Assembly: GCF_050920415.1 (NCBI RefSeq) | Contig: NZ_CP169309.1 | Strand: one strand, 5' to 3' | Origin: Escherichia coli | GTDB taxonomy: Bacteria; Pseudomonadota; Gammaproteobacteria; Enterobacterales; Enterobacteriaceae | DNA length: 64,000 nucleotides | Shown: one piece after another, positions 37,055 through 61,398 of the stretch | Layout: the number at the start of each line of letters is the position of its first letter | Numbering within the stretch: position 1 is the first letter of the stretch | Notes under the pieces: generated by a model | Database searches by the model: none | Told to the model about the DNA's origin: nothing | What the model saw: only the letters and a program-made list of their open reading frames with translations | Position numbers and translations under genes: made by a program

Positions 37055-37909
37055 TTAACCTGCAATAGCCATTCCTACTGTCATGTGCAGGCCATAAAAG
37101 AGCACACGCCCGATCATCTCACCGCCAAGTATGAGGATTAGCCCCAGAATAAGTCCGGCAACGTGAGGTTCGCGGCGACGAATGAGCGGGCAAAGCCAGC
37201 ATCCAAGACCTGCGCATAACAATACCACACGCCAGACCTGTAAGGAGGCGTAATCTGGTACCAGTGCGCTGGCTTGTTGCACGGATGAGTGAATAGACGC
37301 CAGAGACAAACCTTGCAGCACAATCACCCCGGCACAAGCGATCAGCGCCAGAACGCTAATGATGGCAAATGGTGTGGTATTAAATGTAACGCGAGCTGCC
37401 CGCAGAATTGCGGCAGCAAGTATTGGACCGCTCAACAATACCGTCAGGAAGAAAGCTAGCGTAGTGTAACCGTTATGCCAGGTTGGCACGGTGTCGATTT
37501 GATACACGCAGGTCATCATCCAGACGAAAATGACGCCGAGCGCCATGCTGACAAGTAACCAGAGTTTCCCCAACGCTTGCGGCATTTTACCGATGACCGC
37601 CACCAGCCACCATAGTCCGCCAACGGCAAAAAATATGGAACCGGCAGCAATCTCGTTACTCAGACCAGAAGCTCCGATTCGATTCAGCGAGTTAAACGCT
37701 CGCAGTGGCGATCCCAGGTGCATGACAGAGGCAATAAACCCGATGCCCATCAACAGCCAGAGGAAAAACATGCCACGGACAATACGCTGACGGTCTGCGT
37801 CATTTTTGGCGGCGAACCAGCCAATTCCGCTAACAATCAGCGCGCCTACTACGCATTGACCCAATACGGTAAAGATAACCAGTGGCCATTCATGCCATCC
37901 ATTTCCCAT
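37055..37909 (-). CDS. ynfH: DMSO-reductase-family membrane anchor subunit YnfH (284 aa)
   Basis: Hydrophobic DmsC-like protein starting MGNGWHEWPLVIFTVLGQCVVGALIV at ATG 37907-37909; in this window it is the 3' part of a single 489-codon ORF that begins as ynfG. Confidence 0.85.
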   Translation of the reverse strand: MGNGWHEWPLVIFTVLGQCVVGALIVSGIGWFAAKNDADRQRIVRGMFFLWLLMGIGFIASVMHLGSPLRAFNSLNRIGASGLSNEIAAGSIFFAVGGLWWLVAVIGKMPQALGKLWLLVSMALGVIFVWMMTCVYQIDTVPTWHNGYTTLAFFLTVLLSGPILAAAILRAARVTFNTTPFAIISVLALIACAGVIVLQGLSLASIHSSVQQASALVPDYASLQVWRVVLLCAGLGCWLCPLIRRREPHVAGLILGLILILGGEMIGRVLFYGLHMTVGMAIAG

Positions 37910-38524
37910 TTTACACTTCCTCCGGATTAGCCAGATAACCAGTGGTATCGCCGGTCGGCTGTTGGCGTTAGGTTTGATAACGATATTGGGTTTTGTGAAA
38001 TGCGCGCGCGGCAGTGGCGCGACGGCAGCCAGAGTGCCGTGCTTCTGGCGCAGCTCTTCAATTGGACCGAACTCAAGTGCACGCAGCGGGCAGGATTCGA
38101 CGCATATGGGTTGTTTCCCCTCGGCGACGCGCGAATAACAACCATCGCACTTCGTCATGTGCCCTTTTTCAGCATTGTACTGTGGTGCGCCGTACGGACA
38201 AGCCATGTGGCAGTAGCGGCAGCCGATACAAACATCTTCATCAACCACCACAAAGCCATCTTCACGCTTATGCATTGCGCCGCTGGGGCAGACTTTTGTA
38301 CATGCGGGGTCATCGCAATGGTTACAGGAGATGGAGAGATAATAAGCGAACACGTTCTGGTGCCAGACGCCATTATCTTCCTGCCAGTCGCCGCCAGCGT
38401 ATTCATAAATACGGCGGAAACTGACTTCCGGGCCAAGATCTTTAAAATCTTTGCACGCCAGTTCGCAGGTTTTACAGCCTGTACAGCGGCTGGAATCGAT
38501 AAAAAATCCATATTGTGTGGTCAT
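37910..38524 (-). CDS. ynfG: DMSO-reductase-family Fe-S subunit YnfG; codons 1-191 intact, C-terminus frame-altered, no stop codon, reads in-frame into ynfH
   Basis: Four-cluster ferredoxin motifs (CTGCKTCELAC, CNHCDDPACTKVCP, CIGCRYCHMACP, CDGCYSRV...C). After ...KPNANSRP the frame gives AIPLVIWLIRRKCK and then the ynfH Met, where a DmsB-like ...PTGDTTGYLANPEEV-stop is expected. Confidence 0.8.
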
Positions 38525-38534: not shown

Positions 38535-40958
38535 TTAAACCTTTTCGATCTGGACGAGATTGCTGTGCGACGGGTTTCCCTTTGCCAGCGGTGAAGGGCG
38601 GTGAGAGGTCAGAATATTGATACTGCCGCCGTGATCGACCCGGTCACCAAACATATCCGCTTTAAGCCACGCACCTTGCCCGATGGCGGTAACGCCAGGC
38701 AGAATACGCGGAGTCACTTTTGCGGCAATCAGCATTTCTCCATTATTGTTAAATACCCGCACGGTATCGCCATGACGGATACCGCGTGCCTGAGCATCAA
38801 TGGGGTTGATCCACACCTCTTGTGGGCAGGCCTGCTGTAACACATCAATATTGCCGTAGCTGGAGTGGGTACGCGCTTTGTAGTGGAAGCCCGTTAACTG
38901 CAGTGGATAGGTTTTCCGCAGGGGATCGTCCCAGCCATCAAAACCTGGGGTATACGCAGGAAGGGGATGAATAATTTCATCTTTTTTCAATTCCCAGGTA
39001 TCTGCAATCTTCGCCAGTCGTTCAGAATAAATTTCGATTTTCCCCGAAGGTGTTTTCAATGGGTTTGCCTGTGGATCTTCACGGAATGCGCGGAAAGCGA
39101 CGTAATGTTCTTCCGGGCATTTTTTCTTAAAGATCCCGGTCGTTTTCATCTCCTCGTAGTCCGGCATCTCAGGGTTACGTTCCTTCGTTTTCGCATGGAG
39201 ATATTTGATCCATTCATGCTGACTGCGACCTTCAGTAAAGGTTTGATAAACGTCTGGTCCTAAGCGTTTCGCGACTTCACTCAGCATCCAGTAGATGGGT
39301 TTGCGTTCAAATTTTGCTGAGGTTGCGGGTTGGGCGAGGATCACATAGCCCATATTCCCTGCAGATTCATGAGAGATAAGGTCTTCTTGCTCTGTTGGCA
39401 TCAGGTCGGGCAACAGGATATCGCAATACTTAGCCGAGGCCGTCATGAAGTGGTCAATGCCAACAATCATCTCGCACTTGCTGTCATCCTGAAGCACCTC
39501 ATGGGTGTGATTGATGTCGCCATGTTGATTGATCAATGTGTTACTGGCGTAGCACCATAAAAACTTGATGGGGACATCCAGTTTTTCTTTTCCACGAATA
39601 CCATCACGGGTCGCGGTCATTTCCGTACCGTGGTCGATGGCATCTGTCCATGTAAAGACGGAAATCTGCGTTTTAACAGGATTATCAAGCATCGGGAACC
39701 ATTCGACCCCCAGATCCCAGCTACCTTCGCGTACACCTGAGTTGCCGCCGTTTATGCCGACGTTACCGGTGAGAACGGAAAGCATGGCAATAGCGCGGGA
39801 CGTTTGCTCGCCGTTGGAGTGTCGTTGTGGCCCCCAACCCTGACAAATATAAGCAGGTTTTGCTGAACCGATCTCTCGTGCCAACTGGATAATTTTTTCT
39901 GCCGGGATGCTGGTGATTTTTGCTGCCCATTCCGGCGTTTTAGCTATGCCGTCAGGCCCTTCGCCCAGAATATAGGCTTTATAATGCGCGTTACGTGGTG
40001 CGTTGGCGGGCAGCGTTTTTTCATCGTAACCAACACAATATTTGTCGAGAAATGGCTGATCGACCATGTTTTCCGTAATCAGTACCCAGGCAATCGCACA
40101 GGCCAGTGCGCCATCGGTGCCAGGGCGAATGGGCAGCCATTCATCTTCACGCCCGGCAGCTGTGTCGTTATAACGTGGATCAATGACGATCATGCGTGCG
40201 TTTGAACGTTCGCGGGCTTGCTCGACGTAGTAAGTGACACCACCGCCGCTCATCCGGGTTTCTGCCGGGTTATTTCCGAACATAACGACCAGCTTCGTAT
40301 TGGCGATATCATCCGGGCTGTTGCCATCATTGGCACCGAACATATAACTCATTGCGGCACTGATCTGTGCGGTACTGTAGCTGCCATAGCGACTGAGAAA
40401 ACCACCACAAGAGTTCATCAGACGGTACGGGACGTTTGAGTTGGTGATGTTTCCGCCATCTACGCCTGTTCCATAGAGAACATGTACAGCCTCATTGCCG
40501 TAATCTTTTAGGATCCGCCGAAGATTATCACTGATGGTCTCCAGGGCTTCGTCCCAACTTATCCGTTCAAATTTACCTTCACCGCGCTTGCCGACGCGCT
40601 TCATGGGATATTTCAACCTATCAGGATGATTCATCCGTCGGCGGATAGAGCGCCCGCGTAAACAGGCGCGAACCTGATGATTACCGTAGACGTCGTCACC
40701 TGTCGTATCAGACTCCACCCAGTACACAGTGTCATCTTTCACATGCAAACGTAACAGACAGCGGCTCCCGCAGTTAACGGTGCAGGAACTCCAGACCGCT
40801 TTCTCTTCTACCGGAGCCTCTGCCGCTCGGACCATTTGGGAAAATGGCAGAGTGAAAGCACTGCTTGCCAGCGCGAGACTGCCAAGTGCGGAGGTTTTCA
40901 TCAGACTTCTACGGCTGATTTCAGCCTTCATGAGCGCCTCTGTGGTATGGATTTTCAT
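38535..40958 (-). CDS. ynfF: Molybdopterin oxidoreductase catalytic subunit YnfF (DmsA paralogue, 807 aa)
   Basis: Tat signal (SRRSLMKTSALGSLALA), N-terminal Cys cluster (CTVNCGSRC), MopB domains; intact. Confidence 0.9.
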   Translation of the reverse strand: MKIHTTEALMKAEISRRSLMKTSALGSLALASSAFTLPFSQMVRAAEAPVEEKAVWSSCTVNCGSRCLLRLHVKDDTVYWVESDTTGDDVYGNHQVRACLRGRSIRRRMNHPDRLKYPMKRVGKRGEGKFERISWDEALETISDNLRRILKDYGNEAVHVLYGTGVDGGNITNSNVPYRLMNSCGGFLSRYGSYSTAQISAAMSYMFGANDGNSPDDIANTKLVVMFGNNPAETRMSGGGVTYYVEQARERSNARMIVIDPRYNDTAAGREDEWLPIRPGTDGALACAIAWVLITENMVDQPFLDKYCVGYDEKTLPANAPRNAHYKAYILGEGPDGIAKTPEWAAKITSIPAEKIIQLAREIGSAKPAYICQGWGPQRHSNGEQTSRAIAMLSVLTGNVGINGGNSGVREGSWDLGVEWFPMLDNPVKTQISVFTWTDAIDHGTEMTATRDGIRGKEKLDVPIKFLWCYASNTLINQHGDINHTHEVLQDDSKCEMIVGIDHFMTASAKYCDILLPDLMPTEQEDLISHESAGNMGYVILAQPATSAKFERKPIYWMLSEVAKRLGPDVYQTFTEGRSQHEWIKYLHAKTKERNPEMPDYEEMKTTGIFKKKCPEEHYVAFRAFREDPQANPLKTPSGKIEIYSERLAKIADTWELKKDEIIHPLPAYTPGFDGWDDPLRKTYPLQLTGFHYKARTHSSYGNIDVLQQACPQEVWINPIDAQARGIRHGDTVRVFNNNGEMLIAAKVTPRILPGVTAIGQGAWLKADMFGDRVDHGGSINILTSHRPSPLAKGNPSHSNLVQIEKV

Positions 40959-41018: not shown

Positions 41019-43206
41019 TTATATTTTTTCGATCTCGACCAGATTAGTGTGCTGCGGGTTTCCCTTCGCCAGTGGTGAAGGGCGCAGAGTGGTTAGCGTA
41101 TTCACACAGCCGCCGTGGTCGATTTTATCGCCAGACATATTGGCCTCGTGCCAGGCTCCCTGGCCCATAGCGCTAACTCCAGGGAGAATGCGTGGTGTCA
41201 CTTTGGCTGGTAGCCGAACTTCGCCACGATGGTTAAACACCCGCACCATATCGCCGTTGGCAATCCCACGTTTCTGTGCATCTATAGGGTTGATCCACAC
41301 TTCCTGACGGCAGGCTGCCTTCAGGACATCAATGTTGCCGTAGGTCGAGTGAGTACGAGATTTGTAATGGAAACCAAACAGTTGTAGCGGGAAGGTACTA
41401 CGTTCAGGGGCGTCCCAGCCTTCGAAGGTTGAGGCATAAACCGGCAGTGGGCTTATTACTTCATCTTTTTCGAGTTCCCAGGTACGGGCAATTTCCGCCA
41501 GTTTGCTGGAATAAATTTCGATCTTACCGGAAGGCGTTTTAAGTGGATTTGTCTCGGGGTCGTCACGAAATGCTTTGTAGGCGATAAAATGACCATTAGG
41601 ATCCTTACGCTTATAGATACCCATTTTTTTCAGTTCGTCGTAAGACGGTAATGCCGGATCTTTGGCAAGCATTTTGGCGTACAGATGTTGTAACCATTGT
41701 TCCTGAGTGCGGCCTTCAGTGAATTTTTGATAGACGTCAGGGCCAAGACGTTTCGCGACTTCACTTAGGATCCAGTAAATCGGTTTGCGTTCGAATTTTT
41801 CGCTGGTGACTGGCTGGAGGAAAATGAGATATCCCATGTTACCGGCGTAATCGTTAGGAATAATATCTTCCTGCTCAACGGTCATCAGGTCTGGCAGCAG
41901 AATGTCGGCATATTTTGCCGATGAGGTCATAAAGTTTTCGATGACCACAATCATTTCGCATTTCGATTCGTCCTGCAGAATTTCATGCGTTTTGTTAATG
42001 TCAGAATGCTGATTAACCAGGGTATTTCCCGCGTAGTTCCAGATGAACTTAATGGGCACATCCAGTTTATCTTTGCCGCGGACGCCGTCGCGGATTGCCG
42101 TCATTTGCGGGCCATGATCGATAGCATCCGTCCAGCTGAAGCAGGAGATTGATGTTTTGACCGGATTATCCAGCACCGGCAGGCGTTCTATGGTAATGGT
42201 ATAGGTGGATTCACGCGCGCCACTATTTCCGCCGCTGATGCCGACATTGCCCGTCAGAATAGGCAACATCGCAATAGCGCGTGCGGTCAGCTCACCGTTT
42301 GCCTGGCGTTGCGGTCCCCAACCCTGGCAGATATAAGCGGGTTTTGCTGTGCCGATTTCACGCGCCAGTTTGATGATACGGTCCACCGGGATACCGGTAA
42401 TTTGCGAAGCCCACTGCGGCGTTTTCGCTGTGTTATCATCACCTTCACCAAGAATATAGGCTTTATAGTGGCCATTTTTTGGTGCATCTGCGGGTAAGGT
42501 TTTTTCGTCATAACCGACGCAGTATTTATCGAGAAAAGGTTGATCAACGAGATTTTCGTTAATCAATGCCATCATTACTGCCGTAGGTGTAGGGCATGGC
42601 ACAGGAAATTTGCGCGGTGCTGTAGGAGCCATACTGGTTGAGTGAACCGCCGTAGCAGTTCATCAGGCGTTTGACCGCCGAGGCTGATGGCGAAGAGCGG
42701 GTCATATTGCCGCCAACGATCCCCGAAGAGTACTGAATATATACAGCCTCATTGCCATATTGTTCGACGGTTTTTTTCAGACTACTGGCGATAGTATCCA
42801 GGGCTTCATCCCAGCTAATCCGTTCGAATTTGCCTTCGCCGCGTTTGCCCACGCGTTTCATTGGGTAATTCAAGCGATCGGGATGATTAATACGCCGACG
42901 GATGGACCGACCGCGCAAACAGGCGCGTACTTGATGATTGCCATACTCGTCGCTGCCGGTGTTGTCAGTTTCCACCCAGGTGACTTCATTATCTTTAACA
43001 TGTAGACGAAGTGCACAGCGGCTACCACAGTTGACGGAACAGGCACCCCAGACCACTTTTTCGCTGGCCTGTTGTACCGCTGCCGCTGCACTGCGCAGGG
43101 TGAACGGTAAAGAAAAACCGCCTGCAGCCAGCGCCAGAGAACCTATCGCGGTAGATTTAACGAGTGTTCTGCGGCTGATGCCCACCATTTGTTCATTTTT
43201 GGACAT
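41019..43206 (-). pseudogene. ynfE: ynfE (DmsA paralogue) disrupted: N-terminal 215-codon ORF (42559..43206) and C-terminal 537-codon ORF (41019..42632) lie in different frames; about 80 codons are missing at the junction
   Basis: N-terminal ORF has Tat signal and Cys cluster and ends ...YGSNDGID-stop. C-terminal ORF resumes at ...LINENLVDQPFLDKYCVGYDEK. The intact paralogue ynfF in this same window has 80 residues between the equivalent NDG and LITENMVDQ. Confidence 0.75.
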
Positions 43207-48566: not shown

Positions 48567-49862
48567 TTAATTTTTCACCACCTCGTTTTGGGGCATGGTT
48601 GGGGCAAACTCGCTTAGCTGTGTATTTAACAGGGCTACCTGTGCATTATTGTTTTCAGACATCCATTTCCCGTATACCTGAAACACCATTTGCGCATCTG
48701 CATGTCCCATCTGGTTTGCTATGAATGCCGGGTTGGCACCGGCTGTCAACGACCAGCAGGCATAAGTATGTCTCGACTGATATGATTTGCGGTGGCGGAG
48801 GCCAGCGCGCTTTATCGCTGCGTCCCACATCTGCCTTATTGAGTCAACGGTAAAATGGTCACCATAATTTTTTACTCTCGCTGACACTTCAGGTTGAAAA
48901 ACAAAGGTGCATTTTTGTTTTTCTGTTCTGCCGAACTCTCTGAGGTGAACGTCAATAATATGTTCTTTGCTCAGCCTCGTTAGTGTCATCTGACTCCTGA
49001 GAGCGTCGATTGCAGGCTTGATAAGGTGAATTACCCGATTGGTACCAGCCTGTGTTTTCGGTACCGTAAAACGATCTTTTGCTAAATTTCTCCTGATCAT
49101 CATTGTTCCATTTTTCAGATCTATGTCCTCCCACCCAAGCGCACACAGTTCACCAGGGCGAATGCCTGTATAAACAGAAACACACCATAAATTTTTGGCC
49201 TGCTGATTTCTGCAGGCGTCGATAAGACGGATAAATTCCTCCCGTGAAAGAGGATCAGGAATGGTTCTTGATTCCTTTAATGGCGAGATCCCCTTAAACG
49301 GATTATCTGCCAGGTAACCGTTATCAACACCAAACTGGAACACGGCGTTAAGATTTGTCATGTAATTATTTACAGTTACAGCCGATCTCCCTGGTTGTGT
49401 AACAATATAGTTACTTTTGGGGATCTGGTATCCAGTCAGTAGCTCTTTACGAACCTCCAGTAATTTTTCTTTATTAATCGATGAGGCAAGATTTTTTTCA
49501 CCGATTATGCTCAGGATATTTTTGATGACGGCACGGTATGTGTTGAGTGATGCTTTGGCGACTTCAGTTTCTTTCAGTGCCAGAAATTTTTCAGCCAGTT
49601 CTTTTATGGTTAAATCTTGTCGGGCCTCACCAAATTTTTCCAGATTGCGTGAGGAGGGAAACTGTTTTGCATAGTCGAAAACACCAGTTTTTATTGCGTA
49701 ACAAACAGAGGAGCGTAGTTCACCTGCAACGCGCCTGTTTTTTGCTGTGTCAGGAACCCCCAGATTTTCCCTGACTCTTACGCCTTTATAAACAAACCAG
49801 ATACGTAATTTCCCTCCATGGTTTTCCACGCCTGTCGGATATTTCATTTCAACTTCTCTCAT
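48567..49862 (-). CDS. Prophage tyrosine integrase (site-specific recombinase)
   Basis: C-terminal catalytic region with RHTYACW (His-x-x-Arg), GHADAQM and VYGKW (Tyr nucleophile); phage Int N-terminal arm-binding-type domain. True start may be the internal ATG giving MKYPTGVENHGG. Confidence 0.85.
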   Translation of the reverse strand: MREVEMKYPTGVENHGGKLRIWFVYKGVRVRENLGVPDTAKNRRVAGELRSSVCYAIKTGVFDYAKQFPSSRNLEKFGEARQDLTIKELAEKFLALKETEVAKASLNTYRAVIKNILSIIGEKNLASSINKEKLLEVRKELLTGYQIPKSNYIVTQPGRSAVTVNNYMTNLNAVFQFGVDNGYLADNPFKGISPLKESRTIPDPLSREEFIRLIDACRNQQAKNLWCVSVYTGIRPGELCALGWEDIDLKNGTMMIRRNLAKDRFTVPKTQAGTNRVIHLIKPAIDALRSQMTLTRLSKEHIIDVHLREFGRTEKQKCTFVFQPEVSARVKNYGDHFTVDSIRQMWDAAIKRAGLRHRKSYQSRHTYACWSLTAGANPAFIANQMGHADAQMVFQVYGKWMSENNNAQVALLNTQLSEFAPTMPQNEVVKN

Positions 49863-49881
49863 TAGTTAGTGTGGCTTTTAG

Positions 49882-50133
49882 TCAAGTAAGATGACGTCTT
49901 GGTCTCGCTGATGCCTGGCGCTCAATCCAGCGATCAATTTCTTCCAGGTTGTAAAAGCATGGACTGTTATCCCATGGCATACCGTCATGAGCGACATGCT
50001 TATATTCCCTTCCTTCCATAAACGATTTTTCCCGGGCCTTTTTTAACGTACCTTTTTTTATTCCTTTCAGCGCAATTAACTGCTCTTCGGATACCCATTT
50101 GCCGGGAGAGACAATCATGATTACTTCGCTCAT
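49882..50133 (-). CDS. Excisionase-like small protein (putative Xis)
   Basis: 83-codon ORF immediately upstream of int on the same strand; small basic protein. Function inferred from position and size. Confidence 0.55.
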   Translation of the reverse strand: MSEVIMIVSPGKWVSEEQLIALKGIKKGTLKKAREKSFMEGREYKHVAHDGMPWDNSPCFYNLEEIDRWIERQASARPRRHLT

Positions 50134-50205
50134 CGATTTCTTTATCTCTTACATCAGACGAGCGCCGGTTGCAGAATACCAGTCACAACCGGCGACAGTT
50201 GAACA

Positions 50206-52677
50206 TTAAGAATCAGCCTGACTCGGGATCAGTTTTTGCCAGATAACTGAAACGTATTTTGCCTGGTAACGGGCGTCATCAAGTGCATTATGGCGCTCAC
50301 CTTCGAATGGAATAGCCGTTCTGGCATCGAAGTCTATGGCTTTCCCCAGCTCAACGATTGTGCGTACATCGCGATCGTTGTAGTAACGCCACGGGCAGGG
50401 GATCCCCTGCCGTTCGTATGAACGGCGCAAAATCGTGTTGTCGAAGTTGGCTCCATTTCCCCAGACCTGAACAAAAAATTCACCGGAGTTTTCGTCGATA
50501 AATTCCCGCAATTGTAACAGTGCATCATCTAACGGGATTTCATCGGTCATAATGGCAGATTGCGCTTCGCGTGATTGCTTAAGCCACCATTTAATGGTGT
50601 CCCGATCAATGACTCCGCCAGCAGTTTCCAGATCGATAGTCTTACTAAATTCCGGTCCCATATCTCCGGTTTGCGGATCGAAAAATATTGCACCTATTGA
50701 GATAATCGGGGCATCAGGATTTTTTCCCATGGTTTCAAGGTCGATCATTAGATGGTCACACGTCCTGCTGGTGGATGTGATAACGTGATGACCGTTCACC
50801 GCAATTAAGGGATCTGCCGTCTCGCCAGTTTCATTATTGCTGGCGTGGTCCTGAGCGCTGCCAGCATTCTCCTTGTGTGGATGTTCAGCGCCTTCCATTT
50901 CCTCCGGATCATTTTCCTGAACTTCAACCTGATTCTCTTCATCGAATGTTTCTTGGTATGTTGCGTCGCCCATCACCGCACCACAATCAGGGCAGTTGCC
51001 GCCGCCGGTCTGACCGCATGCGGTGCAGACTTTTTCCGCTTCCTGTTGCGCTACTGGCTCAGGTTGTTTCGTTTCTGGCTCGTTTTGTAACGCATTTGGG
51101 CTGTTTTGTTCTGCTTTCTGGTCGTTCTGTTCCGTTTCTTGCTGGTTCTGATTCACTGAATCGCGGGTTTCAATCCCCTTCACCCATTTCGGATCATTCG
51201 GGTCGCTAATCCCTGCAACAAATTCACCACGTGATACAGCAAGCAACTTATCGGCGTCAGGCTGGCTGATATTGGCTGCCTGCATAATTTTGTTTACTTC
51301 GTCAGCGGTAACTTTTACCGGCTCTGGTTGTGCGGTCGTGTCAGATGCACCAGTATTTTGTTGTGAACCTGAGTATGTACCGTTTTTACGGGCAAAATAT
51401 TCTTCTTTCGTGATTTCAGTAGCCCCTGCAGTCAGCGCCTTATTCAGACCAGAAAGTTTGTTTGCGCGACCATATTTTTCGCCATCCTTGTCGGTGAAGA
51501 GGAAGTAGAACGGCCCCTCACGCTCTACAGATGGTTCGACTTCCACTTTGCATTCGGTTTTTTCGTTGTCCGGAATTGCCGTTTCCACTGCATCAGTTTC
51601 TGGTACTGGCGACGAGAGAGTATCAGTTGCGCTCTGATTTCTTCCTTCATCTTCAAACACGCCCTTTGTAGTCAGGTATTCAGTAATGTATTTGTTCAGT
51701 GTCACAGGGTCTTTGTGAATGTCGATCGGACGTTCACGGACAAGGCCAAAAATAGTCTGGCGGTCGTAGCGAAGGGCATCAGGCTGTTTGCGCATTGATG
51801 CCGAGATACGCTTCCAGTCTTCGCGGTCGTTGTCGATAACTTCATTTTTTGCCCAGCGATGGATGCTGCCGTCAATGTTTCCGGCATCCACATCACCAGG
51901 CCAGAGAGCGTAGGCCAGTTCGTCATCCAGTGTTTTCCATGTCTGCTTGTATTCGCGATGAGTGGCAGCAATGACCGGGCTGATTTTTCCTGTTGAATTG
52001 TCAGTGTACTGTTGATTGGCTCTGGCGCGGGCGAGATCAACAACAGACGTGTATTTTCCGGTTTCCTTGCGTTCACCTTCGCGACGTTTTTTCCAGATGC
52101 GCATCTCTGCCTGAATTTCGGGCCATTTAGCACCAGGAATACATTTATGCTTAACCCACCCAATGGCGTGCAACTTAAGCTCCGGATACATGGCGTTAAC
52201 TTCTGGCATTTTCATCAACGCTTCAACGATATGTCCGTCGAATGTTGCCATGTCTTCCTGCAACAATTCCTGTGCGCTAATAACCATATCAACGGTGATG
52301 TTTTCACATGTGTCGAACTTAACCAGGACCGCGTTCTGTACTTCAGGGGACAGCTTGTCAAAATTGACGTTCATCGGATCGGATTCTGGTTCGACCGGGA
52401 CAAAGGAAGCGCCTTCCTCATCCCAGCGGTTTTCCAGCATATATTCGGTATCCCAGGAGTCGATGGCAGGGCGGGGCATGCCGGGTTTATCCTCGCAGAC
52501 AAGAAATTTATAAGCGCAGTCCTGAGCAGCCGGATATTGCTCCAGGAATTGCCAGGTAAATTTGGCTCGGGCGCGACGTTCGTCGCCGGCTTCAATGGCA
52601 GTGGCTACAGCGACTGCACCTTCTTCCTTTATTGCCTGTTCGTCCGGAATGGCGGCGCAAATAAAGACTTTACTCAT
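50206..52677 (-). CDS. Prophage RecE-like protein (823 aa): acidic/Gln-rich linker with CxxC...CxxC zinc ribbon and C-terminal DEDDh-type 3'-5' exonuclease motifs
   Basis: Linker ...DPNDPKWVKGIETRD...CTACGQTGGGNCPDCGAVMGDATYQETFDEE... resembles the RecE linker as I recall it. C-terminus has Exo I motif MIDLETMG, Exo II-like FVQVWGNGANFD and Exo III HNALDDARY. Confidence 0.6.
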   Translation of the reverse strand: MSKVFICAAIPDEQAIKEEGAVAVATAIEAGDERRARAKFTWQFLEQYPAAQDCAYKFLVCEDKPGMPRPAIDSWDTEYMLENRWDEEGASFVPVEPESDPMNVNFDKLSPEVQNAVLVKFDTCENITVDMVISAQELLQEDMATFDGHIVEALMKMPEVNAMYPELKLHAIGWVKHKCIPGAKWPEIQAEMRIWKKRREGERKETGKYTSVVDLARARANQQYTDNSTGKISPVIAATHREYKQTWKTLDDELAYALWPGDVDAGNIDGSIHRWAKNEVIDNDREDWKRISASMRKQPDALRYDRQTIFGLVRERPIDIHKDPVTLNKYITEYLTTKGVFEDEGRNQSATDTLSSPVPETDAVETAIPDNEKTECKVEVEPSVEREGPFYFLFTDKDGEKYGRANKLSGLNKALTAGATEITKEEYFARKNGTYSGSQQNTGASDTTAQPEPVKVTADEVNKIMQAANISQPDADKLLAVSRGEFVAGISDPNDPKWVKGIETRDSVNQNQQETEQNDQKAEQNSPNALQNEPETKQPEPVAQQEAEKVCTACGQTGGGNCPDCGAVMGDATYQETFDEENQVEVQENDPEEMEGAEHPHKENAGSAQDHASNNETGETADPLIAVNGHHVITSTSRTCDHLMIDLETMGKNPDAPIISIGAIFFDPQTGDMGPEFSKTIDLETAGGVIDRDTIKWWLKQSREAQSAIMTDEIPLDDALLQLREFIDENSGEFFVQVWGNGANFDNTILRRSYERQGIPCPWRYYNDRDVRTIVELGKAIDFDARTAIPFEGERHNALDDARYQAKYVSVIWQKLIPSQADS

Positions 52678-52757
52678 TTTGTTTTAACCTCATTACAGAT
52701 TTAAGGGTGAACAAATCCCTGCCATTGCTGGCATATAAAAATGAAACCGGATATTAA

Positions 52758-52961
52758 TTACGGTGCTGTTTTAAGTCCTGCCGGGATTTCGTTATTGTCC
52801 ATGCGAATAACTTTCTCAACCGGATAACAGTTGCCGGGAATTTTCTGTTCCGCTGCGGCAGCCATGCATTCTTTCATTGAGTCATGTATACCAATAACAA
52901 GATCAACTGGCTCGCCCGTATTAAGAAAAACCGTCAGAACGAGTGCAAATGCTGTATTCAT
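52758..52961 (-). CDS. Hypothetical small secreted/membrane prophage protein (about 67 aa)
   Basis: ORF with signal-like N-terminus MNTAFALVLTVFLNTGE... immediately upstream of the recE-like gene; the track ORF extends to 53015. Confidence 0.35.
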   Translation of the reverse strand: MNTAFALVLTVFLNTGEPVDLVIGIHDSMKECMAAAAEQKIPGNCYPVEKVIRMDNNEIPAGLKTAP

Positions 52962-53898
52962 TGCCAGTATCCTTTTTGCATCAGACGTAAACGGGCCAGC
53001 ATTGATACAATGCATATTTGATTTAATAGCTCCCGTTCGTGTTTTCTCTTATTAATGGCATCTTCAGTAAATACAGGGTTACTGATTCTGACACCAATTT
53101 CAAAACAACCTTCAGACGTATTAACGTTTGGTAATAACGTTTCCATTATCGCGTCCTCAACAATGAATTTTGTGATACGGTGCCTGGTGCCTCCAGGTGA
53201 CGTTAACCAGTTAACAATTAACGCCGGATACAGAGAACCCACCCATAAGAACCAATACGGAAGTCAACTGGCCTTTTTAACTGTTCCGCGTGCGCTTAGC
53301 CGCATTCACCGCATCACAAAATTCACTTTAAAAAGGGCGGCAGAGCAGTCACGGAGTAAAACTGATACCGCCAAACGTCACCAGAAAATTGATAACAGAG
53401 GGCGTTGCAGCGGGGTTGCCACTTAAGCGTATGGTCAACCTGACAACCCGGTGTCCTCAACGGGGAAGGAATAACCCCGCCATACTTACCGCCGCGCCAT
53501 TTCGCGGATTGCCACAACCGGAAGCGCACAGACGAAGATGTCAGTGGTACACAACAAAGGGAGGAATGACTTCGCCGTGCGCTTTCGCGTTATGCCCTGA
53601 CTTTTCAGGGATATATCCTTTCAGTAAACTGTTTGTGCCGGATTCTTATCCGTGTCCGGCGCACGACCACGCGCTGTCACGTGTGGTCTCCATTCTCAAC
53701 CAGTAACCTCAATGGAGGATAAAATTAAAATGGTCAGCAAACTAAATTAGACTCGCTGGAAGATTCATTATTAAACAGCGCGTTTAAATTATATTCTTGA
53801 ATGTTTTGGGGATAACCTTGCTGCTGAGGAAGGCTATCCAAACCATGTCGATGGTTTCGAAGCGATATATCTTTATCTATCCCGTAAACATGGATGGA

Positions 53899-54300
53899 CT
53901 ATTTCACAGTGTCGTTTAATGCCACTGGATGATATTCGCCTTGCTCTTTCGTTAGAGCTATCAGGGTGGCGACTCCCTGATGATGCAAAGATTGACGACC
54001 ATCATTCTCACGATGATATAAGTTGTTAAGTTCCAGTAGTTTGGCTTTTGCAATGGCCTCTACAGATTTCCAGAATTTGTGGGGGTCTGTACTCTCTTCC
54101 TGTTCGTCAGGAATGTTATTGTCCTCAACAGAAACAGAATACAGTCCGGTAAACGCATCGCGCACATTACGAGCCATATTATCAATGTCTTTTTTCGTTT
54201 CAGCTTCTAATGCAACTTCGTTCAGACGTTGACGAAGTGTATGTGCTGCAATTTCTTGGATTTCTTTTGGTAACTCTTTAAATTCCATAGTCAACCTCAT
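53899..54300 (-). CDS. Hypothetical prophage early-left protein (about 130 aa)
   Basis: ORF translationally coupled to the upstream 76-codon ORF (the two share position 54300); acidic helical protein; no family recognised. Confidence 0.45.
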   Translation of the reverse strand: MRLTMEFKELPKEIQEIAAHTLRQRLNEVALEAETKKDIDNMARNVRDAFTGLYSVSVEDNNIPDEQEESTDPHKFWKSVEAIAKAKLLELNNLYHRENDGRQSLHHQGVATLIALTKEQGEYHPVALNDTVK

Positions 54301-54530
54301 CAGTCAGTGTTTCTGGCTAACCAGCGATGCGCGCCAGTTTCGGTTTTAAACGTTTTGCTTTTGGTATATGTCATCGCGGTGAACGTACCGTCCTGGTTGG
54401 GGAACACGCCACATACCAGAGATTCGCTGTTGCCAAGATCGATAGTATCCATGCTGACCTCATTTCCCCTTAACGCCGGGGTGGCGGAACAAAAACCTGC
54501 TGCATAGTTAAAGTTGAACCCTGCCGTCAT
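54300..54530 (-). CDS. Hypothetical small prophage protein (50-76 aa)
   Basis: First ORF after the putative early-left operator; possible internal start MDTIDLGNSESLVCGVFPNQDGTF. Confidence 0.4.
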   Translation of the reverse strand: MTAGFNFNYAAGFCSATPALRGNEVSMDTIDLGNSESLVCGVFPNQDGTFTAMTYTKSKTFKTETGAHRWLARNTD

Positions 54531-54620
54531 GTTCTTACGCCTCGGGCTGGCTACTTAACCCCTGACCACTGCCTGGTAACTCGAAGTATTGCCCTGCGTT
54601 CTGTGGGGCGGGGTGGTATA

Positions 54621-54650
54621 CTATAAAACTAAATCTATTTAGTTTTATAG
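54621..54650. promoter_or_regulatory. Perfect 14-bp-arm palindrome CTATAAAACTAAAT-CT-ATTTAGTTTTATAG; candidate OL-type operator for the CI-like repressor
   Basis: Exact 30-bp inverted repeat between the repressor gene and the early-left ORFs; a related half-site (CTAAAA...TTTTAG) recurs in the cI-cro intergenic region. Confidence 0.55.
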
Positions 54651-54671
54651 TCAAGCGCGATCTAGATATAT

Positions 54672-54698
54672 TTAAAAAAAGGTCGACAAAGCCGACCT
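54672..54698 (-). terminator. Candidate rho-independent terminator downstream of the repressor gene
   Basis: Minus-strand hairpin AGGUCG-loop-CGACCU followed by U7, about 25 nt after the repressor stop. Confidence 0.5.
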
Positions 54699-54721
54699 CT
54701 GATTGAAAAACAAAGTGGAAG

Positions 54722-55372
54722 CTATAGGCTGAACTGCACACCTTTTGCTACAGCAACAATTTTACATTCAGGTGTCAGTAAGGACGATTGATAGCGAGGA
54801 TTGAGGGGGCTTAAATACACGAGTTTTCCGTCGATGACTAATTTTTTTATAGTCATAGATGGTTCGTTTGTAAGCGGATCTGGGACTATTACAGCGACGA
54901 TACTACCATTTTTATATTTTTCTCTAGGCCTCATGATCACTGTGGCACCAACCGGAATGCTTGGCGACCCTGATGGGTTGTGCATAGTGTCATCAGGCAT
55001 TGAAACGGCAAAATCCCCCTCCTTGACGTCAAAGAATGTGGTGATTCTGTCGGCATTTCCCATAGTTTTCTCTCCTTCTAAAATTAGGAAAGAAATTGCT
55101 TCCCCCCATGAAAGATAGGGGATTTGGGTGCCTGAATTGTTCTGCACAAGGGTAGGTTCAGTAGACGATACTCCATATAGGAGATAGGACTCAGTAGTTC
55201 CTAGTGCTTGGGCTAATTTACTAAGAGCTTTGCTACCGGGTTCGTTTAGGTCTTTCTCCCAGTACCCTATAGTTACCCCTGTTACGCCAGAAAGCTTGCC
55301 CAGTTCGACTTGGGTCAGTCCCTTGTCTTTTCTGAGTCTCTTAAGCCTAATGCCAAGGCTTTCCATCATCAT
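54722..55372 (-). CDS. Prophage CI-like repressor: XRE-type HTH plus S24 (LexA-like) autopeptidase domain
   Basis: N-terminal HTH (LKRLRKDKGLTQVELGKLSGVTGVTIGYWE) and C-terminal S24-like region (...GSIVAVIV...KKLVIDGKLVYLSPLN); divergent from a cro-like gene. Confidence 0.85.
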   Translation of the reverse strand: MMMESLGIRLKRLRKDKGLTQVELGKLSGVTGVTIGYWEKDLNEPGSKALSKLAQALGTTESYLLYGVSSTEPTLVQNNSGTQIPYLSWGEAISFLILEGEKTMGNADRITTFFDVKEGDFAVSMPDDTMHNPSGSPSIPVGATVIMRPREKYKNGSIVAVIVPDPLTNEPSMTIKKLVIDGKLVYLSPLNPRYQSSLLTPECKIVAVAKGVQFSL

Positions 55373-55464
55373 CTCCCGTGAATTGAATATAAATTATTTT
55401 AGATTGCATTGACCTAAAAAAAATTATCCTTTAATCTAAAAATACTTAGTTTTAGGAGGGTGAA
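55373..55464. promoter_or_regulatory. Divergent promoter/operator region between the cI-like and cro-like genes
   Basis: AT-rich 92-bp spacer with partially palindromic sites TTTAGATTGCATTGACCTAAA (55398-55418) and CTAAAAATACTTAGTTTTAG (55436-55455); AGGAGG RBS precedes the cro-like start. Confidence 0.5.
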
Positions 55465-55692
55465 ATGCGAGTTGATGAACTTGTCCAGTTTTTTGGCTCT
55501 GTTCAGAGAGTTGCCGATTTTTATGGGATAACCCGTGAAGCTATATACATGTGGCGCAAACGTCCTGGTGAAATAGTTCCCAAGGGGAGGGCCGCGGAAG
55601 CTGCCGCATACTCCAAGGGAAAATTATCTTTGAACCCAGAACTTTACAAAAAGAAGGATAACACCTTGAACGAAGGAAAGAATGATTCATGA
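55465..55692 (+). CDS. Cro/YdaS-like small HTH regulator (75 aa)
   Basis: Small protein with HTH-like segment VQRVADFYGITREAIYMWRKR; first gene of the rightward operon opposite the repressor. Confidence 0.7.
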   Translation: MRVDELVQFFGSVQRVADFYGITREAIYMWRKRPGEIVPKGRAAEAAAYSKGKLSLNPELYKKKDNTLNEGKNDS

Positions 55693-56114
55693 AAATCAAG
55701 CATGAACACATCCGCATGGCTATGAATGCCTGGGCGCGTCCGGATGGTGAAAAAGTTCCGGCGGCCAAGATAACCAGGGCTTATTTCGAACTGGGAATGA
55801 CGTCCCCGGAACTGTACGACGACAGCCATCCAGAAGCCCTGGTTCGTAATACTCAGAAAATTTTCCGCTGGGTGGAGAAAGACACCACTGATGCGGTTGA
55901 AAAAATTCAGGCGTTGTTACCAGCAATCGAAAAAGCAATGCCACCTCTGCTGGTGGCCCGGATGCGCAGCCACAGTTCAGCCTATTTTCGGGAGTTGGTG
56001 GAGACGCGGGAACGACTGGTGAGAGACGCTGATGATTTTGTCGCAGTGGCAATCGCCGGTTTCAATCAGATGAATCGTGGTGGCCCGGCAGGAAATGCTG
56101 TGGTGATGCACTAA
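55689..56114 (+). CDS. YdaT/CII-like prophage regulatory protein (141 aa)
   Basis: Begins MKIKHEHI... like Rac YdaT as I recall it; overlaps the cro-like stop; sits where lambdoid cII lies. Confidence 0.55.
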   Translation: MKIKHEHIRMAMNAWARPDGEKVPAAKITRAYFELGMTSPELYDDSHPEALVRNTQKIFRWVEKDTTDAVEKIQALLPAIEKAMPPLLVARMRSHSSAYFRELVETRERLVRDADDFVAVAIAGFNQMNRGGPAGNAVVMH

Positions 56115-56137
56115 AAGCACGGTGTTCGGGGTTTTTT

Positions 56138-56962
56138 ATGAGCAGCAAGCTTCATGGTCTTGTCTGGGAAGGGTGCGCCTTCACCGGCATGATCTTATCC
56201 AGGGTGGCAGTAATGGCTCGCCTTGCAGACTACAGCAATGACGAAGGTGTGTCATGGCCTGCAGTGGAGACCATTCGTCGTCAGATTGGGGCAAAGAGTG
56301 AATCAACGGTTAAAGCGGCGATAGCGGAACTGGAAAAGAACGGCTGGCTGACGAAGGAGGAGCGTAAGGTCGGTGGGCGTAATGAAAGCAATATCTACCG
56401 CCTTAATGTGGAAAAACTCGAAGCAGCAGCTGAGGCGGCGCGTGAGGCATATAAACCGAAAAGAAAAATTAGCCCGGCAAAAAATGACCCGTTAACAGTT
56501 GACCAGTCAAATATTGCCCCCTCAACGGTTGACCCGTCAAATTTTGATGGATCAACCGTTGGTAAAAAACAGCCGGTTAGGGGGGCGATGGTTGGCCCCG
56601 ATCCGTCAGTATTAAAACCTGATCCGTCAGATAAAAGATCTTTTCGTCCGGAAGCTTCGCAACCGGACCCGCAGACGGCTGAACAGGATTTTTTAACCCG
56701 ACATCCTGATGCGGTTGTGTTTAGTGCAAAAAAACGTCAGTGGGGAACTCAGGAGGATTTGGCATGCGCACAGTGGATCTGGGGGCGAATCGTGAGTCTT
56801 TACGAACAGGCCGCCAGCGATGATGGCGAGATCACCCGACCGAAAGAACCCAACTGGACAGCATGGGCCAATGACGTGCGCATAATGCGGATGCTGGATG
56901 GCAGAACTCACAGACAAATCTGTGAACCGCCCCGGGTTTCCTGGAGAGTGTTTTATCTGTGA
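56138..56962 (+). pseudogene. Phage replication-initiator (O-like, N-terminal winged-HTH) gene, 5' part; interrupted by an IS element after codon 261
   Basis: N-terminus ...AVMARLADYSNDEGVSWPAVETIRRQIGAKSESTVKAAIAELEKNGWL is typical of phage replisome-organiser proteins. The frame ends inside the IS inverted repeat; the original frame resumes at 58235 and stops at 58414. Confidence 0.65.
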
Positions 56963-56964
56963 AC

Positions 56965-57831
56965 TCAGGCTGCCAGATCATTGTTTCCGATGGAAGCATA
57001 ATAAGCTTTTTCTGCTTCTGCCGGAGGAGTATGGCCCAGCCTTCCCAGCAATCGTCGATTGTTATACCAGTCCACCCACGTGAGTGTGGCCAGTTCCACT
57101 TCTGCACGGTTTTTCCAGCTCTTACGGTGTATTACCTCCGCTTTGTAAAGACCATTGATGCTCTCAGCCATCGCGTTGTCATACGAGTCGCCTGTACTCC
57201 CTGTTGATGCCAGCAGTTTTGCTTCTTTTAGTCGCTCCGTATAGGCCAGTGACACATACTGAGAGCCTTTATCGCTGTGATGGATGGTGCCAGACGGACG
57301 ACGGGCCCACAACGCCTGCTCCAGCGCATCCAGCACGAATGTCGTTTCCATAGACGATGAGACCCGCCACCCCACGATGTATCCGGCAAACACATCAATG
57401 ATGAACGCCACATAGACGAAGCCCTGCCATGTGCTGACGTAAGTAAAATCAGCCACCCACAGCTGGTCAGGACGTTCTGCCACGAACTGACGGTTTACGC
57501 GGTCACCTGTGGCAACGGTTTTCCGGCTGACGGTAGTGCGGACCTTTTTACCCCGGAGAACACCGGCAAGTCCCATAACCGCCATGAGGCGCGCCACTGT
57601 ACATCTGGCCACCCTGATTCCTTCCCGTAACAACTGACGCCAGACTTTACGCACACCGTACACCTGATGATTTTCATCGTATACGCGCTGTATCTCTCTC
57701 TTCAGCCAGTCATCGCGCTGCGCACGGGCACTGCGTTTATCAGGATGATGCCGCTGCTGCTGACAATGGTAATACGTTGACGGGGCAATATGCAGTTCAC
57801 TGCATACCGGTCCGACCCCCGTACTGCTCAC
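56965..57831 (-). CDS. IS3-family transposase OrfB (DDE integrase core)
   Basis: DDE core ...LWVADFTYVSTWQGFVYVAFIIDVFAGYIVGW...HHSDKGSQY...DSYDNAMAESINGLYKAE. In this copy the body is in the same frame as orfA rather than the -1 frame. Confidence 0.85.
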   Translation of the reverse strand: MSSTGVGPVCSELHIAPSTYYHCQQQRHHPDKRSARAQRDDWLKREIQRVYDENHQVYGVRKVWRQLLREGIRVARCTVARLMAVMGLAGVLRGKKVRTTVSRKTVATGDRVNRQFVAERPDQLWVADFTYVSTWQGFVYVAFIIDVFAGYIVGWRVSSSMETTFVLDALEQALWARRPSGTIHHSDKGSQYVSLAYTERLKEAKLLASTGSTGDSYDNAMAESINGLYKAEVIHRKSWKNRAEVELATLTWVDWYNNRRLLGRLGHTPPAEAEKAYYASIGNNDLAA

Positions 57832-57852
57832 GCAGCTTATCCAGCAGTGGCA

Positions 57853-58179
57853 TTATTTTTTCCAGAGGCGGTCGAACTCCGCCTTCGCAAAATAAGCGGA
57901 AGCCTGGCGAAGGATATCGTTACTGCGGCGCAGTTCACGATTTTCACGTTCCAGCTCTTTCAGACGCTGACGTTCAGCGGTGGTGAGCCCACCATCACCG
58001 CTCCCGGTATCCCTCTCATGCTGGCGAACCCAGACACGCAGAGTCTCTGGCGTACAGCCAATCTTTGGAGCAATGGAACAAATTGCCGCCCATTGTGAGT
58101 CATATTCGCCCTGACTTTCCAGAACCATACGAACTGCGCGTTGACGGACTTCGGGGGAAAAACGAGTATTTTTAGTCAT
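57853..58179 (-). CDS. IS3-family transposase OrfA (HTH plus leucine zipper), 108 aa
   Basis: [57 protein letters not shown]...; ends WKK-stop at an A-rich run. Confidence 0.85.
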
Positions 58180-58234
58180 CCTGTTTACCTCTTTCTCAGG
58201 AAGTTTAGTCTCCAGGATTTCCGGGGCGGTTCAC

Positions 58235-58414: not shown

Positions 58415-58454
58415 GTATTGATTTCAGATCATGAGGTAATTTTCAGGAGGACTT

Positions 58455-59686: not shown

Positions 59687-59755
59687 ATAGATCAGGATAC
59701 TGGCAGGCGTAGTGCGGAAAAAGATAATTTAGAAAATGATTGGAAATATACATGG

Positions 59756-60732: not shown

Positions 60733-60746
60733 TTGTTAAGGGCTTA

Positions 60747-61373: not shown

Positions 61374-61398
61374 ATACACTCCTTAGATAGGACACTTA

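What the first reader, a model, noticed from the sequence alone, without database searches (positions are those of the whole stretch)
37880..37960. ynfG has no stop codon and is fused in-frame to ynfH (489-codon ORF)
YnfG codons 1-191 are intact, but the last 14 codons read AIPLVIWLIRRKCK and run into the ynfH Met instead of the expected DmsB-like PTGDTTGYLANPEEV-stop. The expected peptide is still encoded in an adjacent frame (ccg acc ggc gat acc act ggt tat ctg gct aat ccg gag gaa gtg taa). This pattern is what a 4-bp deletion at a tandem ACCG repeat (CGACCGACCGGC to CGACCGGC) would produce. The result would be a fused Fe-S subunit and membrane anchor.
Basis: partly seen in the sequence, partly recalled or inferred. 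Interest (0 to 1): 0.5.

Follow-up and report, generated by a model that had tools for sequence, protein, structure and literature searches.

The report
Frameshift fuses ynfG to ynfH
A real 4-base deletion, inherited by one rare E. coli lineage, knocks the end of the iron-sulfur subunit gene ynfG out of frame so that it reads straight into the membrane-anchor gene ynfH; it is best read as ordinary gene decay in a dispensable selenate/DMSO-type reductase operon, not as a new fusion enzyme.

Summary
On the minus strand, 37055..38524 is one 489-codon ORF: YnfG residues 1-191 (identical to K-12), then 14 out-of-frame codons (AIPLVIWLIRRKCK), then all of YnfH. The cause is a 4-bp deletion, present in 1 of 5,315 complete E. 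coli genomes.

It is not a sequencing error. The exact 489-aa protein is on 61 contigs from independent projects. PGAP calls the identical ynfG sequence in strain MFDS1022581 a "frameshifted" pseudogene.

The fusion is a by-product. The ynfH frame is open for 83 codons inside ynfG (chance, P=0.19). At least 15 other sporadic ynfG-ynfH fusion ORFs exist.

Three things point to loss of function:
- Every carrier contig read also has a 239-bp frameshifting deletion in ynfE.
- The deletion removes a tail motif (GxLxNxxE) conserved across the DmsB family.
- It places four basic residues (RRKCK, net +4) on the periplasmic side of YnfH's first helix.

Natural single-chain DmsB-DmsC proteins do exist. 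In the sample examined they pair with a DmsA that has no signal peptide, and their charge bias places them facing the cytoplasm. YnfF here keeps its Tat signal.

Verdict: an ordinary, already-annotated frameshift allele. Low interest.

The parts
37055..38524 (-). Fused ynfG'-ynfH open reading frame, 489 codons, predicted 53.5 kDa
   Evidence: the ORF listing. Translation compared with K-12. The exact protein, P0001, is in public collections.
37952..38524 (-). YnfG codons 1-191 in the native frame, with all 16 cluster cysteines present
   Evidence: No differences from K-12 YnfG in residues 1-191. TIGR02951 DMSO_dmsB scores 261.9 bits against a cut-off of 214.1. The cysteine columns are invariant in alignment A2.
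37955..37959 (-). Junction of the 4-bp deletion. The reference AGCCGCCCGACC has become AGCCGACC. The exact position is ambiguous within the CCG microhomology.
   Evidence: Alignment A1; coordinates.
37910..37951 (-). 14 out-of-frame codons, AIPLVIWLIRRKCK, replacing the native tail TGDTTGYLANPEEV
   Evidence: Translation. The conserved tail motif is seen.
37911..37913 (-). Native ynfG stop codon TAA, now out of frame and read through
   Evidence: PGAP ends the ynfG pseudogene at this base.
37919..37923 (-). GGAGG Shine-Dalgarno sequence of ynfH, intact. Independent initiation of YnfH remains possible.
   Evidence: read directly from the sequence.
37055..37909 (-). ynfH (DmsC-type 8-helix anchor) with its own ATG at 37907-37909
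   Evidence: PGAP annotation of the identical sequence. PF04976 hit. 8 predicted TM helices.
38535..40958 (-). ynfF, intact catalytic paralogue that retains its twin-arginine signal (SRRSLMK)
41019..43206 (-). ynfE pseudogene. A 239-bp deletion (junction 42566/42567) is followed by a stop two codons later, leaving a 215-aa stub.
   Evidence: BLAST against K-12. Junction sequences. The 50-nt junction query hits 1 of 5,426 genomes. ynfE is split on every carrier contig shown.
36398..37012 (-). dmsD, the Tat proofreading chaperone and last gene of the operon, intact

Best explanation
**What happened.** A 4-bp deletion removed one unit of the imperfect repeat CCGC-CCGA at ynfG codons 190-191. It most likely arose by replication slippage. 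It is now fixed in one rare clonal Escherichia lineage.

**How the fusion arises.** In the reference arrangement, ynfH starts one base after the ynfG stop (GTG TAA A ATG). Its reading frame is, by chance, open for 83 codons upstream inside ynfG. The net -1 shift therefore sends ribosomes past the old stop and into ynfH, giving a 489-codon ORF.

**What it does (inferred).** The allele is most likely a loss of function in an operon that is being lost.
- The main catalytic gene ynfE is truncated in the same lineage.
- The YnfG moiety has lost the family-conserved tail (G-x-L-x-N-x-x-E).
- It has gained a hydrophobic and polybasic stretch (IPLVIWLIRRKCK) next to YnfH helix 1, on the face that should be periplasmic.
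- A cofactor-loaded Fe-S domain that must leave the cytoplasm folded, riding on Tat-targeted YnfF, is now tethered to an 8-helix anchor, which I take to be inserted co-translationally.

**Shown and inferred.** Shown: the deletion, its rarity, its inheritance, the co-occurring ynfE lesion, the lost motif, and the charge and topology contrasts. Inferred: the slippage mechanism, and that the polypeptide is non-functional or unstable.
For: - **Deletion and ORF:**
- **Rarity:** 1 of 5,315 complete genomes.
- **Independent occurrence:**
  - The exact protein is on 61 contigs under four GenBank accessions, including strains M863 and 1.2741. It is listed in 75 blocks of assemblies, including Logan assemblies of separate read sets.
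  - The window differs from the one complete-genome carrier by 5 SNPs and an IS insertion, so it is a separate genome.
- **Existing annotation:** PGAP marks ynfG and ynfE as 'frameshifted'. They are the only two frameshift-flagged genes among about 66 annotated in the 64 kb.
- **ynfE lesion:** a 239-bp deletion is present in all carrier contigs shown. YnfE is described as the predicted catalytic subunit in Salmonella, with YnfF contributing little (PMC5203670).
- **The fusion is a by-product:** the open-frame length is not unusual (P=0.19 under synonymous randomisation). At least 15 other independent fusion ORFs exist.
- **Lost motif:** the tail is conserved in 15 of 17 stand-alone DmsB-type proteins and in most of the natural fusions aligned.
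- **Topology:**
  - Native YnfH has 2 K/R on the N-terminal face against 11 on the other; the new linker adds 4.
  - YnfF keeps its Tat signal.
  - Natural fusions show the opposite bias, 19.6 against 2.4 in 16 of 16. Their DmsA lacks a signal peptide in 4 of 4 cases.
- **Dispensability:**
  - ynfG is a published prophage integration site (PMC10562709, PMC4193171).
  - A sub-lineage carries such a prophage in the fused gene.
Against: - No expression or activity data were available.
- ynfF, ynfH and dmsD remain intact in all carriers. This is uninformative, because carriers differ by only 0-1 SNP per 13.4 kb.
- The final topology of a fusion would be self-consistent, because the YnfG C-terminus and the YnfH N-terminus are both periplasmic.
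- Natural fusions have the same linker length. Geometry alone therefore does not forbid function.
- All 16 cluster cysteines are retained.
- The allele has persisted in isolates from several countries.
Confidence: 0.8

Rival explanations
1. Sequencing or assembly artefact: the 4 bp are present in the real genome.
For: Only 1 of 5,315 complete genomes shows the deletion. Many of the other fusion ORFs in the databases are singletons that could be errors.
Against: - The identical allele appears in independent assemblies: two NCBI draft genomes, a complete RefSeq chromosome, and Logan assemblies of separate runs. It is on 61 contigs and in 75 blocks.
- The window is a genome distinct from the RefSeq carrier.
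- No other frameshift-flagged gene lies in the 64 kb outside this operon.
- A 4-bp loss in a sequence that is not a homopolymer is not a typical error.
Confidence: 0.02
2. Functional single-chain YnfGH: the fusion is made, inserted and works as a combined electron-transfer subunit and quinol-oxidising anchor for YnfF.
For: - All Fe-S cysteines and the whole of YnfH are intact.
- Natural DmsB-DmsC fusions with the same linker length exist in 42 of the best 150 representative clusters.
- The allele persists in a geographically spread lineage.
Against: - Natural fusions pair with a DmsA that has no signal peptide, and their charge bias puts the Fe-S domain in the cytoplasm. YnfF is Tat-targeted, and YnfH has the opposite charge bias.
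- The conserved NxxE tail that natural fusions mostly keep is replaced by RRKCK.
- ynfE is dead in the same lineage.
- I know of no precedent for an N-terminal Tat-hitchhiking domain followed by eight Sec/YidC-inserted helices (own knowledge).
Confidence: 0.08
3. Functionally near-neutral allele. YnfH is still made from its own SD and ATG. The paralogous DmsB (or residual activity of the fused YnfG moiety) serves YnfF, so the pathway is only weakened.
For: - The ynfH SD (GGAGG) and ATG are intact.
- YnfG and DmsB are interchangeable in plasmid complementation (Lubitz & Weiner 2003, recalled from memory and not checked here).
Against: - Elongating ribosomes coming from ynfG now run across the ynfH start, which should hinder internal initiation (inference).
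- ynfE, the predicted catalytic subunit in Salmonella, is truncated.
- dmsABC lies outside the window and was not examined.
Confidence: 0.1
4. Programmed recoding: a ribosomal frameshift restores the native YnfG tail and stop.
For: Tandem rare arginine codons CGG-AGG occur in the new frame just before the old stop.
Against: - Returning to the native frame needs a -1 shift. No X XXY YYZ slippery heptamer or stimulatory structure is evident by eye in 37910-37960.
- The allele is a recent deletion, not a conserved arrangement.
Confidence: 0.01

Closest known systems
E. coli YnfG / DmsB (TIGR02951, DMSO/selenate-family reductase B subunit) followed by YnfH / DmsC (PF04976 anchor), as separate genes
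   Same: - Residues 1-191 are identical to K-12 YnfG.
- The YnfH part is 282/284 identical to K-12.
- Operon order is the same: ynfE-F-G-H-dmsD.
   Different: - There is no in-frame stop after ynfG.
- The 14-residue native tail is replaced.
- The two reading frames are joined.
Natural single-chain DmsB-DmsC proteins (about 470-520 aa) from MAGs and metagenomes, for example MCC6495787.1 from a Propionibacteriaceae MAG
   Same: - One polypeptide with a Fer4_11 four-cluster domain followed by a DmsC domain.
- The same spacing between the domains.
- 30-40% identity across both halves.
- The gene lies directly downstream of a dmsA-type gene.
   Different: - Most of those aligned keep the N-x-E-E tail motif.
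- Their DmsA has no Tat signal in 4 of 4 cases.
- Their K/R bias puts the Fe-S domain in the cytoplasm, 16 of 16 with 8 predicted helices.
- The window allele meets none of these three.
Other sporadic ynfG-ynfH (and dmsB-dmsC) frame-fusion ORFs in Enterobacteriaceae. Examples: Shigella sonnei ...NPEEVK-MGNG (P0012) and E. coli ...NPEECK-MGNG (P0009-P0011).
   Same: They arise from small indels in the last 82 codons of the B-subunit gene or in its stop codon, and they exploit the same open frame.
   Different: - They arise at different positions.
- Most are singletons.
- P0012 and P0009-P0011 retain the native tail in whole or almost in whole. The window allele loses it, but it is by far the most widely sampled (61 contigs).
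PsrABC polysulfide reductase of Thermus thermophilus (PDB 2VPW-2VPZ)
   Same: It is the nearest solved membrane-bound complex found here with a homologous four-cluster B subunit (E=3e-27 over YnfG residues 4-160). It also has an 8-helix anchor (own knowledge).
   Different: - Its subunits are separate.
- The alignment stops at residue 160, so it says nothing about the tail. No DmsABC or YnfFGH structure was found by sequence search.

Membership tests
DmsB/YnfG iron-sulfur subunit (TIGR02951) | HMM score above the curated cut-off | tested here: met
   261.9 bits against a cut-off of 214.1, covering residues 4-163.
DmsB/YnfG iron-sulfur subunit (TIGR02951) | Four cysteine groups (16 Cys) for four [4Fe-4S] clusters | tested here: met
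   C14, 17, 20, 24, 67, 70, 75, 79, 99, 102, 105, 109, 126, 129, 141 and 145 are all present and invariant in A2. Residues 1-191 are identical to K-12.
DmsB/YnfG iron-sulfur subunit (TIGR02951) | Conserved C-terminal tail G-x-[LIV]-x-N-x-x-E, and a stop of its own (protein of about 205 aa) | tested here: not met
   The tail is replaced by AIPLVIWLIRRKCK and there is no stop. The motif is present in 15 of 17 stand-alone homologues.
DmsC/YnfH membrane anchor (PF04976) | Pfam DmsC domain and eight transmembrane helices | tested here: met
   PF04976 is on record for the product. A hydropathy scan predicts 8 helices.
DmsC/YnfH membrane anchor (PF04976) | N-terminus on the periplasmic (K/R-poor) face | tested here: inconclusive
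   The native count is 2 against 11 K/R. The frameshift linker raises the N-terminal face to 6 by adding RRKCK directly before helix 1. Actual topology cannot be tested here.
Natural single-chain DmsB-DmsC proteins | One ORF with Fer4_11 and DmsC domains, next to dmsA | tested here: met
   ynfF lies immediately upstream.
Natural single-chain DmsB-DmsC proteins | Partner catalytic subunit without a Tat signal (cytoplasm-facing enzyme) | tested here: not met
   YnfF in the window has SRRSLMK followed by a hydrophobic stretch. 4 of 4 natural partners lack any signal.
Natural single-chain DmsB-DmsC proteins | Positive-inside bias that places the Fe-S domain in the cytoplasm | tested here: not met
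   Natural fusions: mean 19.6 against 2.4 K/R, 16 of 16. Window protein: 6 against 11.
Natural single-chain DmsB-DmsC proteins | N-x-E-E motif retained in the inter-domain linker | tested here: not met
   Alignment A2, columns 215-226.
Frameshifted pseudogene (annotation class) | Reading frame disrupted relative to the family model by an indel that is not a multiple of 3 | tested here: met
   A 4-bp deletion relative to 5,314 genomes. PGAP flags the identical sequence as 'frameshifted'.

The most novel reading that the evidence does not exclude
The 489-aa polypeptide is made and assembles as a working single-chain YnfGH with Tat-exported YnfF. That would be a natural case of a folded, cofactor-bearing Tat hitchhiker covalently joined to a polytopic anchor that I take to be inserted by Sec/YidC. 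It would also be a snapshot of how the single-chain DmsBC architecture seen in other phyla can arise from a 1-nt intergenic gap.
Probability: 0.06. Interest if true: 0.55.

Novelty: already known. Interest (0 to 1): 0.13.

Why it matters
For most purposes it matters little. It is a lineage marker and an example of decay in a dispensable anaerobic respiration operon.

It has three practical uses.
- **Annotation.** The 489-aa "protein" sits in GenBank under names such as "dimethylsulfoxide reductase, chain B" and "DMSO reductase anchor subunit protein". It should be treated as a pseudogene product.
- **Typing.** The paired ynfE (239-bp) and ynfG (4-bp) lesions are a clean diagnostic for this rare clone. 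At least one carrier, M863, is described as Escherichia clade I.
- **Phenotype.** Carriers are predicted to lack YnfEFGH-dependent selenate or tellurate reduction.

If the fusion did turn out to work, it would be an informative natural experiment on combined Tat and Sec biogenesis.

Tried and rejected
- **An 80-nt query across the ynfE junction was useless.** The tool joins split pieces, so thousands of intact genomes scored 100%. A 50-nt query, in which neither half can seed a match, solved this: 1 of 5,426 genomes.
- **The 83-codon open ynfH frame inside ynfG is not unusual.** I tested whether it might hint at an overlapping gene or a long YnfH isoform. Synonymous-codon randomisation gives P(>=83)=0.19, so it is chance.
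- **No solved DmsABC or YnfFGH structure was found by sequence.** I wanted one to place the tail. The best membrane complex, PsrABC, aligns only to residue 160.
- **No paper on DmsB-DmsC fusions turned up in the held library**.
- **No Tat signal on the longer natural fusions.** I checked the N-terminal extensions of these proteins for twin-arginine signals and found none.
- **The hydropathy-based helix caller is crude.** It gives 6, 7 or 9 helices for many natural fusions, which scrambles loop parity. Only the 16 with 8 predicted helices were used for the charge-bias claim.
- The tool returns confidence values but no coordinates, so tail-to-anchor contacts could not be read. A model would also not address biogenesis.
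- **Programmed frameshifting was considered and dismissed** from reading the sequence.

Full report
**1.

The ynf genes lie on the minus strand. The ORF listing returns a single 489-aa ORF at 37055..38524.
- Its first 191 residues are identical to K-12 YnfG.
- Residues 192-205 read AIPLVIWLIRRKCK.
- Residues 206-489 are YnfH, with two conservative differences from K-12 (V56I, F120V).
- The predicted mass is 53.5 kDa.

The native tail PTGDTTGYLANPEEV-stop is still encoded in the neighbouring frame at 37911..37958. The ynfH ATG (37907-37909) and its GGAGG Shine-Dalgarno sequence (37919-37923) are untouched.

**2.

I aligned the window with K-12 and with a relative that is identical over this stretch apart from the gap.
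- The reference reads CAACAGCCGCCCGACCGGC.
- The window reads CAACAGCCGACCGGC.

The lost unit is one of CCGC, CGCC, GCCC or CCCG within CCGC|CCGA. That is a 3-nt CCG microhomology at a 4-nt period, which fits slipped-strand deletion (inference). There is no ACCG tandem in the ancestral sequence. The junction is at window 37955-37959.

**3. It is rare, real and inherited**

*Rarity.* A 71-nt query across the junction matches 5,315 complete RefSeq E. coli genomes. 5,314 match at 94.7% (the 4 bp are present). One, strain MFDS1022581, matches at 100%.

*The window is a separate genome.* It is not the MFDS1022581 record. It differs by 5 SNPs in 56.9 kb and by a 1.3-kb IS1203/IS629-like insertion at 56927-58233.

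*Independent sampling.*
- The exact 489-aa protein is in GenBank under at least four accessions: BDI36444.1, BDI46260.1, EGB64063.1 and EGE64357.1. The source names include E. coli M863 and 1.2741.
- It is on 61 contigs and is indexed in 75 blocks of assemblies.
- These include NCBI drafts (GCA_000194575.2, GCA_002965625.1) and Logan assemblies of independent read sets.

*Clonality.* Carriers are nearly clonal, with 0-1 SNP over 13.4 kb. M863 is described as Escherichia clade I (PMC4182557). The nearest non-carriers among complete genomes are about 1% divergent over 4.6 kb. A sequencing artefact is therefore excluded.

**4. It is already flagged as a pseudogene, and it is not alone**

In the RefSeq record with the identical sequence, PGAP annotates ynfG (window 37911..38524) as "frameshifted". 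It annotates ynfH as a normal gene.

ynfE is the only other frameshift-flagged gene among about 66 annotated in the 64 kb.
- It carries a 239-bp deletion with its junction at 42566/42567.
- A stop follows two codons later, leaving a 215-aa stub.
- A 50-nt junction query finds this lesion in 1 of 5,426 genomes, the same one.
- Every carrier contig shown has ynfE split in the same way, into 215-aa and about 518-aa pieces.

YnfE is described as the predicted catalytic subunit of the Salmonella selenate reductase, with YnfF contributing little (PMC5203670). Two independent frame-destroying lesions in one four-gene operon, and none elsewhere in 64 kb, point to operon decay.

**5. The fusion is a predictable by-product**

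In reference genomes ynfH begins one base after the ynfG stop (GTG TAA A ATG). The ynfH frame is open for 83 codons upstream, back to about ynfG codon 124. Any net -1 shift in the last 82 codons therefore yields a fused ORF.

The open stretch is not unusual given the protein sequence: P(>=83)=0.19 in 20,000 synonymous randomisations.

The databases accordingly hold at least 15 other ynfG-ynfH or dmsB-dmsC fusion ORFs with different junctions. They come from E. coli, Shigella sonnei, Klebsiella and Salmonella, and most are singletons.

**6. What the frameshift destroys**

Fifteen of 17 stand-alone DmsB-type proteins at 43-54% identity end in G-x-[LIV]-x-N-x-x-E. This is the YnfG tail GYLANPEEV, and it lies outside the TIGR02951 model.

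The window allele replaces it with WLIRRKCK. That swaps an acidic motif for four basic residues (net +4) immediately before YnfH helix 1. Natively, the N-terminal face of YnfH has 2 K/R against 11 on the other face, consistent with a periplasmic N-terminus. The new linker raises this to 6.

**7. Natural single-chain DmsBC proteins exist, but in a different setting**

A search of 1.84 billion representatives found 42 clusters among the best 150 that cover both halves of the query in one chain. They are 30-40% identical and mostly 470-520 aa (up to 644 aa). One example is MCC6495787.1 from a Propionibacteriaceae MAG. In all six loci examined the gene lies directly downstream of a dmsA-type gene.

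They share three features:
- Most of those aligned keep the N-x-E-E motif, and the domain spacing is the same.
- All four complete partner DmsA proteins lack any twin-arginine signal. No fused protein examined has one either.
- All 16 with eight predicted helices carry a strong K/R excess on the Fe-S-domain face, mean 19.6 against 2.4.

In this sample, then, the single-chain architecture belongs to cytoplasm-facing, Tat-independent enzymes.

Here, YnfF keeps its SRRSLMK Tat signal, and E. coli DmsAB face the periplasm (PMC8417374). The Fe-S domain would have to be exported folded while joined to an eight-helix anchor. I know of no precedent for that (own knowledge). This is an inference about biogenesis, not a demonstration.

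**8. Dispensability**

ynfG is a published integration site for Stx1a lambdoid phages (PMC10562709 and PMC4193171).

A sub-lineage of the carriers (P0002, 468 aa, 13 contigs) has such a prophage in the 5' end of the fused gene. The insertion removes the first cysteine group.

**9. Verdict**

The repeat context is wrong. The suggestion of a noteworthy Fe-S/anchor fusion protein is not supported.

The most likely account is an ordinary, lineage-fixed, loss-of-function frameshift in a decaying and dispensable operon. My confidence in that account is about 0.8.
- That the mutation is real and inherited is near certain.
- That the product is non-functional is likely but untested.

The allele is already recorded in public annotation. 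Interest is low. The residual novel reading, a working Tat-exported single-chain YnfGH, has a probability of about 0.06.

Noticed in passing
window 41019-43206 (-), junction 42566/42567: ynfE carries a 239-bp frameshifting deletion that leaves a 215-aa stub. Among 5,426 complete E. coli genomes it is found only in the same single genome that has the ynfG deletion, and it is present on every carrier contig shown.
   Followed up: yes
window 56927-58233: An IS3-family (IS1203/IS629-like) element of about 1.31 kb is inserted in a prophage helix-turn-helix-domain gene. It is absent from the otherwise near-identical MFDS1022581 chromosome, which shows that the window comes from a separate genome of the same clone.
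   Followed up: partly
L009 4800-7407; L010-L012: A sub-lineage of carriers has a lambdoid prophage (integrase, Exo VIII, Gam, RecT) integrated in the 5' end of the fused ynfG-ynfH gene. This gives a 468-aa ORF that lacks the first cysteine group. ynfG is a published Stx1a-phage attachment site.
   Followed up: partly
L013 3127-7467; L015 3611-7473; L016 1175-4860; L019 89-4017: Natural two-gene dmsA-dmsBC loci in MAGs and metagenomes have a single-chain Fe-S-plus-anchor subunit, a DmsA without a signal peptide, and a charge bias that puts the Fe-S domain in the cytoplasm. This implies a cytoplasm-facing DMSO-reductase-family enzyme with inverted anchor topology. No paper on them was found in the held library.
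   Followed up: partly
window 37911-37940 (-), native frame; alignments A2 and A3: The C-terminal tail motif G-x-[LIV]-x-N-x-x-E of DmsB/YnfG is conserved across distant stand-alone and fused homologues. It lies outside the TIGR02951 model, and I found no described role for it.
   Followed up: partly
proteins P0003-P0023 (E. coli, Shigella sonnei, Klebsiella, Salmonella): At least 15 other independent B-subunit/anchor frame-fusion ORFs with different junctions exist. They include 'clean' stop-loss fusions that keep all or nearly all of the native tail (...NPEEVK-MGNG in S. sonnei, on 11 contigs). Most are singletons and may include assembly errors.
   Followed up: partly
window 48567-64000: A lambdoid prophage lies next to rspB. 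It carries an integrase, an excisionase, an exonuclease, dicB, cI/cro-like regulators, a zeta toxin, a truncated hok/gef gene and rusA.
   Followed up: no
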